DNA from: Escherichia coli O157:H7
GTDB lineage: Bacteria; Pseudomonadota; Gammaproteobacteria; Enterobacterales; Enterobacteriaceae
Assembly (NCBI RefSeq): GCF_013167455.1
Contig: NZ_CP038328.1
DNA: 64,000 bases
Reading direction: 5' to 3' (one strand)
Shown here: one piece after another, positions 56,701-64,000 of the stretch
How the letters are laid out: every line of letters begins with the position of its first letter
Position numbering within the stretch: the first letter of the stretch is position 1
Program-made: the position numbers

Positions 56701-59700
56701 TAAAGCGATGCTGACATTGATTGTCTTCTCGTTTACGGTGTCGGTGTATTCGTCAGCGACCGTCACGCCAGGATCGTTGAACCTGGCACCGATCGCCATT
56801 GCCGATATGGATCAATCGCAGTTATCGAACCGGATCGTTAACAGCTTCTATCGCCCGTGGTTTTTGCCACCGGAGATGATCACCGCCGATGAGATGGATG
56901 CCGGACTGGACGCCGGGCGTTATACCTTTGCGATAAATATTCCGCCTAATTTTCAGCGTGATGTCCTCGCCGGACGCCAGCCAGATATTCAGGTGAACGT
57001 CGATGCCACGCGCATGAGCCAGGCATTTACCGGCAATGGGTATATCCAGAATATTATCAACGGTGAAGTGAACAGCTTTGTCGCGCGCTACCGTGATAAC
57101 AGCGAACCGTTGGTATCGCTGGAAACCCGGATGCGCTTTAACCCGAACCTTGATCCCGCGTGGTTTGGCGGGGTGATGGCGATCATCAACAACATTACCA
57201 TGCTGGCGATTGTATTGACCGGATCGGCGCTGATCCGCGAGCGTGAACACGGCACGGTGGAACACTTACTGGTGATGCCGATAACGCCGTTTGAGATCAT
57301 GATGGCGAAGATCTGGTCGATGGGGTTGGTGGTGCTGGTGGTATCGGGATTATCACTGGTGCTGATGGTAAAAGGCGTGTTGGGCGTACCGATTGAAGGC
57401 TCGATCCCGCTGTTTATGCTGGGCGTGGCGCTTAGTCTGTTTGCCACCACGTCAATCGGCATTTTTATGGGGACAATAGCGCGTTCAATGCCGCAACTGG
57501 GGCTGCTGGTGATTCTGGTGCTGCTGCCGCTGCAAATGCTTTCCGGTGGTTCCACGCCGCGCGAAAGTATGCCGCAGATGGTGCAGGACATTATGCTGAT
57601 CATGCCGACGACACACTTTGTTAGCCTCGCGCAGGCCATTCTCTACCGTGGTGCCGGATTCGAAATCGTCTGGCCGCAGTTCCTGACGCTGATGGCAATT
57701 GGCGGCGCGTTTTTCACCATTGCGCTGCTGCGATTCAGGAAGACGATTGGGACAATGGCGTAAGGAAGGGAAACTTGACTTCATACTGTGATGTCATACT
57801 ATTGATGTCATAAAGTGAAGTCATAAGGACATGCCATGAGAACCAAGGTACAGGCTTTACGGAAGAAACAAAAAAATACATTGGATCAAATATTTAAAAC
57901 TCCTGTTCCTCAAGGGATCAAGTGGTCTGATATAGAGTCACTGGTTAAAGCATTAGGCGGAGAAATTAAGGAAGGAAGAGGTTCGCGTTGTAAGCTCATA
58001 CTAAATATGAGCGTTGCGTGTTTCCATCGGCCTCATCCGTCGCCAGATACCGATAAAGGCGCTGTAGAAAGCGTGCGTGACTGGTTACTAAGTATAGGGG
58101 TAAAACCATGATCAAACTGAAGACGCCAAACTCTATGGAGATTGCCGGGCAACCTGCTGTTATCACTTACGTGCCAGAACTGAATGCATTTCGTGGCAAA
58201 TTCCTGGGCTTGTCAGGTTATTGTGATTTTGTCTCTGACAGCATTCAGGGGCTGCAAAAAGAAGGGGAACTTTCCCTGCGAGAGTATCTTGAGGATTGTA
58301 AAGCTGCGGGTATTGAGCCGTATGCGCGTACAGAAAAGATTAAGACCTTTACGTTACGCTATCCAGAATCGCTGAGTGAACGCCTTAATAATGCGGCTGC
58401 GCAGCAACAAGTCTCTGTTAATACCTATATTATTGAAACACTGAATGAGCGTTTGAATCATTTATAACTTATAGCGGCCCAACAATTTCTGTTGCGCCGC
58501 TATATTTTTGTGGCTCTTAAGATGCCTTTCTAACCAACCGATGCCCCTCATTCATCATCAGGATTTTGCTATACACATCTTCCTCGACGGCGTTTTTTGC
58601 TGATGCCATGACTCGTGCCAGATTCGCCTCGTTGTGATTATTCACATACGCTTTGCCGACGGCGGTGATAAACGCTTTGCGCAGATCGCTGGCGATATTT
58701 ACTTTAGCGACGCGATAATTAACAAAGCTGCGTAATATCTCCGGGGCGATACCGGAGCCGCCGTGAATAACCAACGGCACCGGACAGACTTCGGCAATGC
58801 GCTTCAGCAGGGGGATATCGATACGCGGTATATCGTCCAGGCCATGAACGTTGCCAATAGAAACTGCCAGCATGTCGCAACCGGTACGCTCGACAAAGGT
58901 CTTCACCTTTTCCGGTTCCGTTTTGCAATCGGCTTCGCTGACGTGATCATCTTCTTTGCCGAGAATCGCCCCCAGCTCCGCTTCAACCGGTACGCCATAG
59001 GATTTACAGAAATCGACAGCTTCCTGGGTGAAAGCGATATTCTCTTCAAAAGAGAATGCGGCACCGTCAATCATGACCGAGGTAAAGCCCGCGCGCACCG
59101 CCTGTTTAACATCCTCCTGGGTTTTCCCGTGATCCAGATGAAGACTGACCGGAACATCCATTTTATCGGCGTGACGTTTCACGATTTCATAAATGTAATC
59201 GTATCCCGAGAGTTGTGCATTGGTTGGCGCAATCTGAATGAAGTTGGGTAATCCCGAACGCTCAATAGCGTTTAAAATTGAAATTGTCGTCTCCAGATTG
59301 GTGGTATTAAATGCGCCCGCTAATACCCGTTTTTCCTGAATGCGGTCGAGCAGTATCCGTCCATTAACTAATGGCATATTGAAAACCTCATCTTTTAATA
59401 TCAGTTAATTATTCAGCTTCACCGAAGCGGTCGCGAAATAAGTCGGTGAGAGTCTGTATGGCCTCGTTTTCATCATCACCGTCGCAGCGTATTTCCACCG
59501 TTTTTCCGCCTTTTATTCCGGCGCGCATAATATTCATCATGCTGGTGGCATTAATATCATTACCCTCATAGTGCAGCGTCACTTTACAGCTATATTTTTT
59601 GGCGGCTTTCGCCAGACAGGCCGCCGGACGTGCATGCAGGCCAGTACTGTTTCTGACCTCCACGGTTTTATTCAACATAGTGTTCCTCTCGATGATGTAA

Positions 59701-62700: not shown

Positions 62701-64000
62701 TAAGGCACTTTAGTTGTTGAAACTACCAGTGCTACGCCGTCAGTATTTCCAGGTAAAGAGGCAACGTTGGTTTGGGAATAATTGACGTTAAGACCTTGCT
62801 CTTTGCAATATTCCATGACTTTTTCTGTTACCGCCGTGGATGTGGCAATACCCGTGGCGCAGACAAATAAAATGGTTTGACTCATATTTCACCTCGTTCT
62901 TTCATTTTGTTTAAGATTACTGTGTGTATTTCTGTTGTTTCCATCGCAAGCAGGGCTTGCATAAAGGGCGTATCCTGAATCATTTCCATAATCCAGCCCA
63001 GGGCATTTAATTGTTTATTGCTTTCGCTTAAGGCGAGCAAAAAAATCACCCTGACAGGTACGGGGTCAGGATCGCCGCCCATATCGGCAAACTCTACCGG
63101 TTCCGGCAGGATGCCGACGGCAATTGCATTGTGCCTGACATGTTTATGGTCCGTGTGCGGAATAGCGACGCACGGTGGTTCGGTAGGCAGCCCCGTTGGG
63201 TACGTCGCCTCACGTTTCAGTACGTGATCGGCAAAATCAGGGACGACCAGCTCGGCGGCAACCAACGGTTGCGCTAACTGGCGGATGATCTGTTCAACGC
63301 TTAACCCTGCCGGAAGTCGTTGAATATAATTTTCCTGAAAATGTATGCCTTGCATTTTATTCCTCTTAAAAAAGTGTACTTAACTCACTTCCCGCCGTTG
63401 CAGTACGGTGCCAAGATAATATTTATTTCCTTTTAACCAGACGTTGCCAAACTCAATGGGTAATCCTCGGGAGAAAAAGACTAACTGCTCCAGATGCAAA
63501 ACGGGTGCGTCTTCACTGATATCTAAAAAATGACCACGTTCATTACCAATTAATCGCGCGGCATAGCGACTTTCCGAGTAACGAATTTTTCTTTGCGACA
63601 AACTTTCTATTGTTGGAAATAAATTGTGTTGATTAAAATCGATTTCAGCAATACCGGGGCATAGCTCAATATTGATACGGTTCTCTATCAGCATCGCTTT
63701 TTCATCACCAATTGAGCGTAAGCGTTCAAGGTAAAGAATATCCTGACCGGGCGTTATTCTTAATTTCTCTGCCACATAACGATTAGCCGATTCAATCCGT
63801 GACGTAATAACTTCAGTGGTAAAATGTATTTTCTGGCTTTCCAGCGATTCCGCGAATGACAATAATCCTTCACCTAACGGATATGCCACGTTCTCTTTTT
63901 TGACAAATGTTCCCTTACCCTGGACCTGTATTAACACGCCTTCTTTTACCAGTTGGGCGACCGCTTTTTTAACGGTTCCCCGACTCACGTCCAGCATATC

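What the first reader, a model, noticed from the sequence alone, without database searches (positions are those of the whole stretch)
58517..64000. Strain-specific Gat-family PTS / FGGY kinase / HPr-like / class II aldolase catabolic island downstream of yhhJ
Seven tightly packed or overlapping minus-strand genes (GntR-UTRA regulator, EIIA, EIIB, EIIC, FGGY kinase, HPr-like protein, class II aldolase) occupy the position where K-12 has the rhsB region. The combination of a Gat-type PTS, a second kinase and a ketose-bisphosphate aldolase implies a route of the form sugar to sugar-phosphate (PTS) to bisphosphate (kinase) to triose phosphates (aldolase). This is reminiscent of the D-tagatose or similar ketose/polyol pathways described in Klebsiella and Bacillus, but with a dedicated HPr-like carrier. 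The substrate is not evident from sequence.
Basis: partly seen in the sequence, partly recalled or inferred. Interest (0 to 1): 0.55.

Follow-up and report, generated by a model that had tools for sequence, protein, structure and literature searches.

The report
Orphan sugar-uptake and breakdown operon
This is a real, intact seven-gene operon for importing and splitting an unidentified keto-sugar; it is shared by E. coli O157:H7, ExPEC strains, Nissle 1917 and Salmonella but missing from lab strains, and its second kinase belongs to a family not known to act on sugar phosphates.

Summary
Seven co-directional minus-strand genes lie between yhhJ/hicAB and nikR, where K-12 has rhsB: GntR/HutC regulator, EIIA, EIIB, Gat-type EIIC, FGGY kinase, HPr paralogue and class II aldolase.

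It is not strain-specific. The operon is intact in 1635 of 5426 complete E. coli genomes, including O157:H7, ST131, IHE3034, SMS-3-5 and Nissle 1917. It also occurs in other Escherichia species, in about 20 other Enterobacterales, and in Salmonella as STM3779-3785, still listed under "unknown sugars" in 2024.

It is not a gat, aga or tag copy, because every component scores below the curated cut-offs for those families. D-tagatose is unlikely as substrate: Nissle 1917 carries the operon, yet it neither grows on nor consumes D-tagatose once a different cluster is deleted.

Across 85 related loci the kinase always sits with this aldolase. All 71 PTS loci have only this kinase. All 14 PTS-free actinobacterial loci add a xylulokinase-like second FGGY kinase. 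This supports two phosphorylations followed by aldol cleavage.

Most likely mechanism: the PTS makes a ketose phosphate, the FGGY kinase makes a bisphosphate, and the aldolase yields DHAP plus an aldose phosphate. The substrate is unknown. I rate it a new variant of a known kind, of moderate interest.

The parts
58517..59377 (-). Class II (zinc-dependent, FBA/TBA-fold) ketose-phosphate aldolase, 286 aa; last gene of the operon
   Evidence: - NCBIfam NF005943 'class II aldolase' equivalog scores 557 bits (cut-off 364). GatY, KbaY and FBA models all score below their cut-offs.
- The best solved relative is AgaY (1gvf) at only 168 bits.
- Catalytic and metal residues D82, H83, H178, H205, N227 and the GKEDD loop are invariant in 85 of 85 family members.
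- No GatZ/KbaZ-like partner is encoded.
59409..59678 (-). Stand-alone HPr paralogue, 89 aa; its start overlaps the kinase stop by 11 nt
   Evidence: - TIGR01003 HPr family scores 103 bits (cut-off 47.9). It is below the cut-offs for PtsH, NPr and FPr.
- His15 (GLHARPA) is kept in all HPr paralogues of related loci. Ser46 occurs only in the E. coli-type and is Gly in the Salmonella-type.
- An HPr gene is present in every enterobacterial version and absent from most Firmicute versions.
59668..61176 (-). FGGY-family carbohydrate kinase, 502 aa, of an uncharacterised subfamily; its start overlaps the EIIC stop by 8 nt
   Evidence: - Pfam FGGY_N plus FGGY_C.
- Below the cut-off of every NCBIfam FGGY equivalog; the best is XylB at 146 bits against 380.
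- The AlphaFold2 model has pLDDT 91. Foldseek TM-scores to glycerol and xylulose kinases are 0.79-0.86 at 18-23% identity.
- D11, K18, K137, R179 and the catalytic H239-D240-H241 are invariant in 85 of 85 homologues.
- The H-D motif is shared with FucK and RhaB, not with XylB or GlpK.
61169..62557 (-). PTS EIIC, Gat family (452 aa from the ATG at 62527 as in RefSeq, or 462 aa from the GTG at 62557)
   Evidence: - TIGR00827 EIIC-GAT scores 476 bits, below the 542 cut-off.
- RefSeq names it 'PTS galactitol transporter subunit IIC'.
- It is 77% identical to the Enterococcus orthologue.
62604..62885 (-). PTS EIIB, 93 aa
   Evidence: - NF007643 GatB-type scores 58 bits, below the 95 cut-off.
- Cys9 in the VCATGIATS motif is invariant in 71 of 71 homologues.
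62882..63355 (-). PTS EIIA (PTS_EIIA_2 type), 157 aa
   Evidence: - NF007236 GatA-type scores 57 bits, below the 139 cut-off.
- His67 in the AIPH motif is invariant in 69 of 69 homologues.
63380..64000 (-). GntR/HutC-family regulator (HTH plus UTRA); the 3' 205 codons are in the window, and the gene and its promoter continue beyond the window end
   Evidence: - NCBIfam HutC-subfamily hits.
- The full 248-aa gene is ECs_4349.
- Pfam GntR plus UTRA on the Salmonella orthologue.
- Upstream, outside the window, lies a conserved palindrome GTTGTC(C/T)ATAGACAAC. Its TGTC(C/T)ATAGACA core is found in 15 of 17 enterobacterial loci. CRP-like sites lie further upstream.

Best explanation
This is an inducible catabolic operon for an unidentified ketose with a free hydroxyl at both ends, most simply a ketohexose and possibly a heptulose.

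Proposed steps:
1. Enzyme I phosphorylates the operon's own HPr paralogue on His15.
2. HPr passes the phosphate to EIIA (His67) and then EIIB (Cys9).
3. The Gat-type EIIC imports the sugar and releases it as a ketose monophosphate.
4. The FGGY kinase, translationally coupled to EIIC, adds a second phosphate with ATP at the other end of the chain.
5. The GatZ-independent class II aldolase splits the bisphosphate into DHAP plus an aldose phosphate. That would be glyceraldehyde 3-phosphate for a hexulose.

The HutC-type GntR repressor probably sits on the palindrome upstream of its own gene and is probably released by the sugar phosphate. CRP-like sites suggest catabolite control.

Shown here: gene content, intact catalytic residues, conservation, and context logic. 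Inferred: the substrate of each enzyme, the order of steps, and the regulation. A tentative regiochemistry is that the PTS makes the distal (omega) phosphate and the kinase phosphorylates C1.
For: 1. Constant pairing. The kinase is next to an aldolase of this family in 85 of 85 loci from Proteobacteria, Firmicutes and Actinobacteria.

2. Substitution pattern. All 71 PTS-containing loci have this kinase as the only FGGY kinase in the cassette. All 14 loci without a PTS have aldolase, kinase and a second FGGY kinase (Fisher p = 2.6e-16, not corrected for relatedness). These PTS-free loci use MFS or ABC uptake. The second kinase scores 305 bits against the XylB model and has a G-D-N catalytic motif. 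So a PTS and an ordinary sugar kinase are interchangeable, and this kinase is needed in addition.

3. A third combination. Next to the cassette in three Enterococcus avium-group loci is a Man-family PTS with a Zn-ADH, a XylB-like FGGY kinase and an aldolase of the same NF005943 family. The three combinations fit one scheme: one distal and one C1 phosphorylation. They do not fit a fixed 'triose kinase' role for this kinase.

4. Polyol variants. Versions in Erwinia, Pantoea, Raoultella, Bacillaceae and Gilliamella add GatD-like Zn-dependent dehydrogenases. This is the galactitol logic of polyol phosphate to ketose phosphate. The Raoultella (polyol-version) aldolase is 90% identical to the E. coli one, which implies the same or a very similar aldolase substrate.

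5. Catalytic integrity. EIIA His67, EIIB Cys9, HPr His15, kinase D240 and the ATP motifs, and the aldolase Zn ligands are all invariant.

6. Kinase motif. H-D at the catalytic Asp is shared with the ketose 1-kinases FucK and RhaB.

7. Regulation. A conserved operator-like palindrome and CRP-like sites lie upstream of the regulator gene.

8. Expression. The Salmonella orthologues STM3780-85 are expressed in co-culture with caecal communities (PMC11000858).
Against: - No enzyme or growth data exist for any member. I found no paper on the function in 9 full-text searches.
- To my knowledge, no FGGY kinase has been shown to phosphorylate a sugar phosphate.
- The 14 PTS-free loci are all Actinobacteria, and the Man-PTS cassette was seen in one enterococcal lineage only. 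Independent events are therefore few.
- The aldolase residue aligned with AgaY Arg257 is Arg or Lys in only 60 of 85 members and Ser, Ala or Asn in 21. From memory, AgaY Arg257 is the distal-phosphate binder. The test for a bisphosphate substrate is therefore inconclusive.
- The kinase also keeps GlpK-like Glu, Trp and Tyr positions, which would fit a small triose-like substrate.
Confidence: 0.6

Rival explanations
1. Liver-fructose-type order. The PTS makes a ketose 1-phosphate. The aldolase cleaves it directly to DHAP plus a free aldehyde such as glyceraldehyde. The FGGY kinase then acts as a triose (glyceraldehyde) kinase.
For: - The best sequence and fold neighbours of the kinase are glycerol kinases.
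- The kinase keeps residues aligned with GlpK Glu84, Trp103 and Tyr135.
- The PTS versus second-kinase substitution shows only that two phosphorylations occur, not their order.
- The aldolase position aligned with AgaY Arg257 is not invariant.
Against: - In PTS-free loci the added kinase is XylB-like, a family that phosphorylates the end remote from the keto group (my knowledge). Its product could not yield DHAP without a C1 phosphate.
- Role assignment becomes inconsistent across the three observed combinations: Gat-PTS with this kinase, XylB-like kinase with this kinase, and Man-PTS with a XylB-like kinase.
- Similarity to glycerol kinase is only 18-23% identity and is no closer than to xylulokinase.
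- The EIIC-kinase gene overlap is kept in the E. coli-type and most Firmicute loci. This fits consecutive steps, though weakly.
Confidence: 0.15
2. It is simply another D-tagatose or galactitol pathway, a member of the known tag/gat systems with a swapped kinase.
For: - Gat-family EIIC, and an aldolase about as similar to GatY and AgaY as to FBA.
- Related loci carry GatD-like dehydrogenases.
- The overall logic matches the gat and tag routes (PMC9720028).
Against: - Nissle 1917 has the intact operon, ECOLIN_RS19900-19930. Deletion of the unrelated accC-yhdT tag cluster, or of its tagatose kinase alone, gives no growth on and no consumption of D-tagatose (PMC9720028).
- All components fall below the NCBIfam cut-offs for GatA, GatB, GatC, GatY and KbaY.
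- There is no GatZ, and no dehydrogenase in the E. coli version.
- E. coli was long regarded as unable to grow on D-tagatose although about 30% of strains carry this operon.
Confidence: 0.07
3. The HPr paralogue is mainly a partner of the FGGY kinase rather than a transport carrier. It would act as an allosteric regulator, as HPr does for LsrK, or as a phosphoryl donor or activator, as HPr~P does for Gram-positive GlpK. This is compatible with either pathway order.
For: - In E. coli the kinase and HPr genes overlap by 11 nt. In Paenibacillus the HPr gene directly follows the kinase gene.
- Kinase, EIIA and HPr are the three fast-evolving proteins of the cassette. E. coli versus Salmonella: 63, 62 and 48% identity, against 89% for EIIC and aldolase.
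- Precedent exists. HPr binds and inhibits the FGGY kinase LsrK with sub-micromolar Ki, and EIIA-Glc inhibits GlpK (PMC5983913).
- Some Bacillaceae loci carry an extra HPr gene, although Firmicutes generally have a general HPr (my knowledge).
Against: - In most loci the HPr gene follows the aldolase, not the kinase.
- Most Firmicute cassettes lack it altogether.
- A dedicated carrier for a horizontally acquired EIIA is the simpler reading, with the FPr domain of FruB as precedent.
- No interaction data exist.
Confidence: 0.12
4. The operon is a silent or decaying remnant in E. coli with no present function.
For: - No phenotype has been assigned.
- The Salmonella island is reported as H-NS-repressed (PMC3604774).
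- The upstream CRP-like site has a degenerate half in E. coli.
Against: - It is full length in 1635 of 1637 matching genomes at 96-100% identity.
- All catalytic residues are intact.
- The operator is conserved.
- The orthologues are expressed in Salmonella.
Confidence: 0.05

Closest known systems
Salmonella enterica STM3779-STM3785 island
   Same: - Orthologous cassette: GntR-EIIA-EIIB-EIIC-FGGY kinase-aldolase-HPr.
- Identity to E. coli: EIIC 89%, aldolase 89%, GntR 82%, kinase 63%, HPr 48%.
- The palindrome upstream of the regulator gene is conserved.
   Different: - HPr lies after the aldolase, and position 46 is Gly rather than Ser.
- It is inserted beside the uhp/dga region rather than between nikR and yhhJ.
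- Its function is also unknown: 'unknown carbohydrate utilization' in 2013 and 'unknown sugars' in 2024 (PMC3604774; PMC11000858).
PTS-dependent D-tagatose pathway of Klebsiella oxytoca and Salmonella (tagKTH plus gatYZ)
   Same: - A PTS makes a ketose phosphate, a dedicated kinase makes a 1,6-bisphosphate, and a class II aldolase makes DHAP plus G3P (PMC9720028 introduction).
- From memory, TagH includes an HPr-like domain.
   Different: - From memory, the kinase there (TagK) is PfkB-type and the PTS is Fru-family. Here the kinase is FGGY and the PTS is Gat-family.
- The aldolase there needs GatZ; no GatZ is encoded here.
- D-tagatose is not used through this operon in Nissle 1917.
E. coli galactitol pathway (gatYZABCD plus PfkA)
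   Same: - Gat-family EIIABC and a class II aldolase.
- The polyol-type relatives with GatD-like dehydrogenases mirror galactitol 1-phosphate to tagatose 6-phosphate to bisphosphate.
   Different: - gat relies on the housekeeping PfkA for the second phosphorylation; this operon encodes its own FGGY kinase.
- The E. coli version has no dehydrogenase and no GatZ.
- Its regulator is GntR/HutC, whereas gat uses a DeoR-type regulator (from memory).
- All scores are below the Gat cut-offs.
E. coli Nissle/B2 ABC-type D-tagatose cluster (accC-yhdT)
   Same: A strain-variable E. coli sugar cluster that ends in a class II bisphosphate aldolase after two phosphorylations (PMC9720028).
   Different: - It uses an ABC transporter, a roughly 320-aa sugar kinase and PfkA.
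- It sits at a different locus and has a different phylogroup spread. That cluster is in 0.7% of phylogroup E genomes, whereas the present operon is in O157:H7.
- It is experimentally proven, unlike this operon.
Fructose PTS fruBKA (FPr/FruB, FruK)
   Same: A sugar-specific HPr-like carrier plus a dedicated kinase that converts the PTS product to a bisphosphate (my knowledge).
   Different: - FPr is fused to EIIA, and FruK is PfkB-type.
- No aldolase is encoded there.
- It uses a Fru-family EIIBC.
FGGY kinases that bind PTS proteins (LsrK-HPr, GlpK-EIIA-Glc)
   Same: An FGGY-fold kinase functionally tied to HPr or EIIA (PMC5983913). Here the kinase gene is co-transcribed with, and in E. coli overlaps, an HPr gene.
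   Different: - LsrK and GlpK act on unphosphorylated substrates and use the general HPr or EIIA-Glc.
- The kinase here is about 20% identical to them.
- No interaction has been shown.

Membership tests
FGGY carbohydrate kinase family | Two actin-like ATPase domains (Pfam FGGY_N plus FGGY_C) and the FGGY fold | tested here: met
   - Pfam E-values 2.5e-44 and 3.2e-23.
- AF2 model pLDDT 91; TM-scores 0.79-0.86 to glycerol, xylulose and gluconate kinases.
FGGY carbohydrate kinase family | Catalytic Asp and N-terminal D-x-G-T-T phosphate motif | tested here: met
   D240 aligns with GlpK D245 and XylB D233. D11, G13 and T15 are invariant in 85 of 85 homologues.
Any characterised FGGY subfamily (XylB, GlpK, FucK, RhaB, GntK, AraB, LsrK) | Score above the curated equivalog cut-off | tested here: not met
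   The best is XylB at 146 bits against 380. All others are lower. Database names of homologues are generic only.
PTS Gat family (TC 4.A.5) enzyme II | EIIC-GAT domain, EIIB with active Cys, EIIA_2 with active His | tested here: met
   - TIGR00827 scores 476 bits, and the orthologues carry PF03611.
- Cys9 is invariant in 71 of 71 and His67 in 69 of 69.
Galactitol-specific GatABC | Equivalog-level similarity to GatA, GatB and GatC | tested here: not met
   Scores against cut-offs: 57 vs 139, 58 vs 95, 476 vs 542 bits.
Class II ketose-bisphosphate aldolase (PF01116) | Zn-binding His triad, catalytic Asp and Asn, mobile Glu loop | tested here: met
   D82, H83, H178, H205, N227 and the GKEDD loop are invariant in 85 of 85 members and align with the AgaY catalytic residues.
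Class II ketose-bisphosphate aldolase (PF01116) | Residue that binds the distal phosphate (AgaY Arg257; assignment from memory) | tested here: inconclusive
   It is Arg255 in E. coli. Across the family it is Arg 43, Lys 17, Ser 15, Ala 3 and Asn 3.
GatY/KbaY tagatose-bisphosphate aldolase | Equivalog score and a GatZ/KbaZ partner subunit | tested here: not met
   Scores are 240 vs 383 bits (GatY) and 183 vs 542 bits (KbaY). No GatZ-like gene is in the operon.
PTS D-tagatose pathway (tagKTH-gatYZ) | Supports growth on D-tagatose | tested here: not met
   This is indirect. Nissle 1917 carries the operon but is Tag-negative after deletion of another cluster (PMC9720028). The operon might simply not be induced under those conditions.
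HPr phosphocarrier family | HPr fold and the phosphorylatable His15 | tested here: met
   TIGR01003 scores 103 bits against a 47.9 cut-off. GLHARPA with His15 is present in all paralogues.
General HPr (PtsH), NPr or FPr | Equivalog score | tested here: not met
   Scores against cut-offs: PtsH 51 vs 153, NPr 49 vs 119, FruB 60 vs 302 bits.
GntR/HutC regulators | N-terminal wHTH plus C-terminal UTRA domain, and a palindromic GT...AC operator | tested here: met
   - Pfam GntR plus UTRA on the orthologues; HutC-subfamily NCBIfam hits.
- A conserved GTTGTC(C/T)ATAGACAAC palindrome lies upstream. Binding was not tested.
Sugar-phosphate kinase activity of the FGGY enzyme | Phosphorylates a ketose monophosphate | not testable with these tools
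   Inferred only from gene-context substitution.

The most novel reading that the evidence does not exclude
The kinase would be the first FGGY-family enzyme shown to act on an already phosphorylated sugar. It would be a PFK-like ketose-phosphate 1-kinase on an actin-fold scaffold. The pathway would form a previously unrecognised ketose-bisphosphate route built from interchangeable modules: Gat-PTS, Man-PTS or a XylB-like kinase, plus this kinase, plus an NF005943 aldolase. Its natural substrate would be a dietary or plant ketose not currently credited to E. coli or Salmonella, for example a heptulose such as mannoheptulose or a rare hexulose. The operon's own HPr would form a specific relay or regulatory unit with EIIA and the kinase.
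Probability: 0.3. Interest if true: 0.7.

Novelty: new variant of a known kind. Interest (0 to 1): 0.5.

Why it matters
The operon is absent from K-12, B and W laboratory strains. It is intact in about 30% of complete E. coli genomes, including EHEC O157:H7, the pandemic ExPEC lineage ST131, the ExPEC strain IHE3034 and the probiotic Nissle 1917. It is also present in Salmonella enterica subspecies I.

If its substrate were found, that would add a gut carbon source relevant to colonisation and competition among these organisms.

If the FGGY kinase really phosphorylates a ketose phosphate, that would extend the known chemistry of a large, well-studied kinase family. It would also supply a new enzyme for making ketose bisphosphates.

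The comparative data give a concrete, cheap set of experiments.

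Tried and rejected
**Literature**
- Full-text searches by locus tag found nothing relevant: ECs4349-4355 gave no hits and Z4880-4885 gave none on E. coli.
- Searches combining FGGY with PTS, HPr, aldolase, tagatose, sorbose or psicose listed no paper on such a cassette.
- STM tags gave only 'unknown sugar' mentions.
- Van der Heiden 2013 on B. licheniformis tagatose is not held in the library.

**D-tagatose as substrate**
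- Considered and largely rejected on the Nissle deletion data.

**Aldolase distal-phosphate residue as a test of bisphosphate versus monophosphate substrate**
- Inconclusive, because the position is variable.

**Fold search of the kinase model**
- It confirms FGGY but does not place the kinase nearer to any subfamily.
- Sequence motifs give mixed signals: H-D as in FucK and RhaB, but Glu and Tyr as in GlpK.

**Promoter and terminator scan of the operon**
- Counts were no higher than in shuffled sequence, so it is not informative.

**Context of the actinobacterial loci**
- Unassigned ORFs are mostly transporters or spurious high-GC ORFs. No extra conserved enzyme such as an isomerase or epimerase was found.

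**Firmicute origin of the HPr paralogue**
- The only support is a higher NCBIfam score to PRK13780 (78 bits) than to the E. coli PtsH model (51 bits). I did not pursue it.

**D-psicose as substrate**
- Nissle grows on it and K-12 does not.
- I consider it unlikely because FBA-fold class II aldolases make or cleave 3S ketoses (my knowledge). It is not excluded.

Full report
**What is there**

The window is E. coli O157:H7. Bases 57800-64000 are 100% identical to Sakai, EDL933 and many other O157 genomes.

Between yhhJ (56555-57763, +) and the window end lie a hicA/hicB pair (57836-58467, +) and then seven minus-strand ORFs:

| Gene | Window coordinates |
|---|---|
| Class II aldolase | 58517-59377 |
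| HPr-like protein | 59409-59678 |
| FGGY kinase | 59668-61176 |
| EIIC | 61169-62557 (RefSeq start 62527) |
| EIIB | 62604-62885 |
| EIIA | 62882-63355 |
| GntR/HutC regulator | 63380 to beyond 64000 |

- In Sakai these are ECs_4355 down to ECs_4349, followed by nikR.
- Three junctions overlap, by 11, 8 and 4 nt. The other gaps are 24-76 nt.
- Family assignments are confirmed by NCBIfam, by Pfam for the kinase and by RefSeq names.
- K-12 has nikR-rhsB-yhhH-yrhC'-yhhI-yhhJ at this junction.

**How common it is**

The operon alone (58517-64000) matches 1637 of 5426 complete E. coli genomes.
- In 1635 of them the match covers at least 80% of the query.
- It is always chromosomal, almost always single copy (two places in one genome), and 96-100% identical.
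- Carriers include O157:H7, O145, IHE3034 and ST131 (B2) and SMS-3-5 (F). Nissle 1917 carries it as ECOLIN_RS19900-19930, at the same nikR-yhhJ junction but without hicAB.

A scan of one genome per species found the same gene set in many other taxa:
- Escherichia whittamii, with the kinase and HPr genes on a short E. albertii contig
- Citrobacter amalonaticus, Klebsiella oxytoca, Enterobacter, Cedecea, Rahnella, Pantoea, Trabulsiella and others

Salmonella enterica has it as STM3779-3785, at a different chromosomal site beside the uhp genes.

'Strain-specific' is therefore wrong. It is an old, lineage-distributed accessory operon.

**What is known about it**

I found nothing on function.
- A 2013 Salmonella genomics paper calls STM3779-3785 a complete PTS 'with unknown specificity' that was gained by subspecies I and is H-NS-repressed (PMC3604774).
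- A 2024 transcriptome paper lists STM3780-85 under 'unknown sugars'. They were expressed in co-culture with a permissive chicken caecal community (PMC11000858).
- Searches by E. coli locus tags and by combinations of FGGY with PTS terms listed no paper on such a cassette.

**It is not a gat, aga or tag copy**

Each component scores below the curated cut-off of the characterised family:

| Component | Score (bits) | Cut-off (bits) | Model |
|---|---|---|---|
| EIIC | 476 | 542 | EIIC-GAT |
| EIIB | 58 | 95 | GatB |
| EIIA | 57 | 139 | GatA |
| Aldolase | 240 | 383 | GatY |
| Aldolase | 183 | 542 | KbaY |
| Kinase | 146 | 380 | XylB (best of all FGGY models) |

- The aldolase belongs to its own NCBIfam equivalog, NF005943, which is named only 'class II aldolase' (557 bits).
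- The closest solved structures are AgaY for the aldolase (168 bits) and glycerol kinases for the kinase (about 87 bits).
- An AlphaFold2 model of the kinase (pLDDT 91) superposes on glycerol, xylulose and gluconate kinases with TM 0.79-0.86 at 18-23% identity. It is no closer to any one of them.

**D-tagatose is disfavoured**

- Nissle 1917 grows on D-tagatose, D-psicose and L-sorbose whereas K-12 does not (PMC7924626).
- Ha et al. showed that tagatose growth depends entirely on an ABC-transporter/tagatose-kinase/aldolase cluster between accC and yhdT. Deleting that cluster, or only its kinase, gives no growth and no tagatose consumption (PMC9720028).
- Nissle still has the intact nikR-yhhJ operon. 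So this operon does not provide a tagatose route under those conditions.
- L-sorbose use in Nissle is attributed to the sor operon.

**Comparative anatomy**

I took 80 loci from the species scan plus those fetched through protein look-ups and annotated them with profile searches seeded from the cassette proteins.

After removing duplicates, 85 loci carry a kinase of this family, and all 85 have an NF005943-type aldolase within 7 kb. The architectures fall into six classes:

| Class | Taxa | Gene order |
|---|---|---|
| A | E. coli-type Enterobacterales | GntR-IIA-IIB-IIC-kinase, with HPr and aldolase placed variously; no dehydrogenase |
| B | Enterococcus, Listeria, Selenomonas, Pectinatus, Pediococcus, Lacticaseibacillus, Olsenella and others | regulator, aldolase and IIA-IIB-IIC-kinase, with the aldolase at either end; no HPr |
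| C | Erwinia, Pantoea, Raoultella, Serratia, Buttiauxella | IIA-IIB-IIC-kinase-ZnADH, then GntR-aldolase-HPr, often with SurE and/or a second ZnADH |
| D | Bacillaceae | Mga/PRD regulator-IIA-IIB(-IIB)-IIC-ZnADH-aldolase-kinase-ZnADH, sometimes HPr |
| E | Gilliamella | as B, plus ZnADH |
| F | Actinobacteria (Microbacteriaceae, Arthrobacter, Actinoplanes, Demequina) | no PTS; aldolase-kinase-second FGGY kinase, often a third divergent FGGY paralogue, GntR; polyol-type MFS (RbtT/DalT family) or ABC transporters and a ZnADH in some loci (ZnADH within 7 kb in 5 of 14) |

**The key pattern**

- None of the 71 PTS loci has the second kinase. All 14 PTS-free loci do (Fisher p = 2.6e-16). The caveat is that the 14 are all Actinobacteria and represent few independent events.
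- The second kinase is xylulokinase-like. It scores 305 bits against TIGR01312 and has a G-G-D-N-A-A catalytic motif.
- A PTS and an ordinary ATP-dependent sugar kinase are thus interchangeable. The cassette kinase is required in addition, so the pathway needs two phosphorylations.
- A third arrangement lies immediately downstream of the cassette in E. avium, E. raffinosus and E. malodoratus. It consists of an NF005943 aldolase (427 bits), an Mga/PRD regulator, a Man-family IIA/IIB/IIC/IID, a ZnADH and a XylB-like FGGY kinase (350 bits, G-D-N motif).

One consistent assignment explains all three combinations:
- Gat-PTS or a XylB-like kinase supplies the phosphate remote from the keto group.
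- The cassette kinase or a Man-type PTS supplies the C1 phosphate.
- The aldolase then cleaves the bisphosphate.

The cassette kinase has an invariant H-D-H at the catalytic Asp. The H-D is shared with the ketose 1-kinases FucK (GHDTQ) and RhaB (SHDTA), but not with XylB or GlpK. This fits the assignment, though only weakly.

**Polyol relatives**

Classes C to E add Zn-dependent dehydrogenases related to galactitol-1-phosphate dehydrogenase. The best match is 238 bits, below the 550 cut-off. This mirrors the gat logic of polyol phosphate to ketose phosphate.

The class C Raoultella aldolase is 90% identical to the E. coli aldolase, although the EIIC is only 56% and the kinase 38% identical. 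Two things follow:
- The modules have been recombined: GntR-aldolase-HPr on one side, IIABC-kinase(-ADH) on the other.
- The aldolase substrate is probably the same in both. The E. coli operon would therefore take up the ketose whose polyol is used by class C.

**Rival order of steps**

The substitution pattern does not by itself fix the order. The alternative has the aldolase cleaving a ketose 1-phosphate and the cassette kinase phosphorylating the released glyceraldehyde.

In its favour:
- The nearest solved relatives are glycerol kinases.
- The kinase keeps residues aligned with GlpK Glu84, Trp103 and Tyr135.

Against it:
- A XylB-type first kinase would not create the C1 phosphate that a DHAP-releasing aldolase needs.
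- The kinase roles would have to switch between architectures.

A direct sequence test was inconclusive. It asked whether the residue aligned with AgaY Arg257 is conserved. It is Arg or Lys in 60 members and Ser, Ala or Asn in 21.

I put the sequential-phosphorylation model at about 0.6 and the triose-kinase model at about 0.15.

**The HPr paralogue**

- All copies keep His15. Ser46 is present only in the E. coli-type and is Gly in the Salmonella-type.
- Every enterobacterial cassette (classes A and C) has one. Most Firmicute cassettes have none, but some Bacillaceae and Paenibacillus loci do.
- The simplest reading is a dedicated carrier for a horizontally mobile EIIA.
- Kinase, EIIA and HPr are consistently the fastest-evolving proteins of the cassette:

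| Comparison | EIIC | Aldolase | Kinase | EIIA | HPr |
|---|---|---|---|---|---|
| E. coli vs Salmonella | 89% | 89% | 63% | 62% | 48% |
| E. coli vs Enterococcus | 77% | 70% | 38% | 42% | none in Enterococcus |

- FGGY kinases have precedents for binding PTS proteins: LsrK with HPr and GlpK with EIIA-Glc (PMC5983913).
- A regulatory contact between the paralogue and the kinase is therefore possible but untested.

**Regulation**

Just beyond the window end, upstream of the regulator gene, the sequence GTTGTCCATgaTTGTCCATAGACAAC contains a palindrome.
- Its TGTC(C/T)ATAGACA core is found in 15 of 17 class A loci, from Escherichia to Rahnella.
- It is a perfect 16-mer, GTTGTCTATAGACAAC, in the Salmonella-type loci.
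- CRP-like TGTGA-N6-TCACA sites lie further upstream. They are near-consensus in most genera, but one half is degenerate in E. coli.

This fits a self-regulated, catabolite-repressed operon. A simple promoter and terminator scan inside the operon found no more sites than in shuffled sequence.

**Constraints on the substrate (inference)**

- It should be a ketose, because no isomerase is encoded.
- Both ends should be phosphorylatable.
- It probably has 3S configuration, because FBA-fold class II aldolases are 3S-specific (my knowledge).
- It is not D-tagatose in Nissle under the tested conditions.
- It is related to a polyol used by plant- and insect-associated relatives.
- Candidates are rare hexuloses or heptuloses. 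I cannot choose among them.

**Verdict**

This is a real, intact, widely conserved but uncharacterised PTS-kinase-aldolase operon. In logic it is a variant of the tagatose, galactitol and fructose bisphosphate routes. It is distinguished by an FGGY-family second kinase, a stand-alone HPr paralogue and a GatZ-independent aldolase subfamily.

Novelty: new variant of a known kind. Interest: 0.5.

Noticed in passing
window 57836-58111 (+) and 58108-58467 (+): A hicA/hicB toxin-antitoxin pair sits between yhhJ and the aldolase in O157. It is convergent with the operon across a 49-nt spacer. It is absent from the same junction in Nissle 1917. NCBIfam gave no hit, although RefSeq names both genes.
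   Followed up: partly
L001 12328-12500, minus strand (just beyond window base 64000): The conserved promoter region of the operon has three elements. There is a direct half-repeat GTTGT(C/A)CAT and a palindrome GTTGTC(C/T)ATAGACAAC, with its core found in 15 of 17 enterobacterial loci. There are also two CRP-like sites, and the left half of the distal one is degenerate in Escherichia.
   Followed up: partly
L039 10896-19104 (also L040, L043): In the Enterococcus avium group a second, analogous cassette lies directly downstream. It has an NF005943 aldolase, an Mga/PRD regulator, a Man-family PTS IIA/IIB/IIC/IID, a Zn-ADH and a XylB-like FGGY kinase.
   Followed up: partly
L085 12047-13390; also L053, L067, L071, L073, L089, L093: Many actinobacterial PTS-free loci carry a third, highly divergent FGGY paralogue. 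It is about 23% identical to the cassette kinase and keeps a GGHDHP motif. Its role is unknown.
   Followed up: no
window 59668-63355, compared with L003, L004 and L065: Evolutionary rates are uneven within one operon. EIIC, EIIB, aldolase and GntR are very conserved, with EIIC 77% identical between E. coli and Enterococcus. Kinase, EIIA and HPr diverge fast. The Raoultella (class C) aldolase is 90% identical to the E. coli aldolase although the PTS and kinase are not, which indicates module shuffling.
   Followed up: partly
window 58500-64000: GC content varies along the operon. It is 0.54-0.59 over most of the kinase gene (60000-61000) and 0.42-0.49 over the EIIB, EIIA and GntR genes. This is unexplained. 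It may relate to the separate history of the kinase.
   Followed up: no
window 50000-52500: An AT-rich stretch (GC 0.34-0.38) lies upstream of the yhiI-rbbA-yhhJ genes. At least its 3' part (from about 51800) is the yhiJ gene.
   Followed up: no
L003 (Salmonella), 1-17485: The Salmonella orthologous island is inserted between the uhp genes and a GIY-YIG/RelE-HTH region near a sigma-54 activator. It is not at nikR-yhhJ, so the cassette has entered different chromosomal sites in the two genera.
   Followed up: no
window 61169-62557: The EIIC start is ambiguous. The longest ORF begins at the GTG at 62557 (462 aa), whereas RefSeq uses the ATG at 62527 (452 aa).
   Followed up: no
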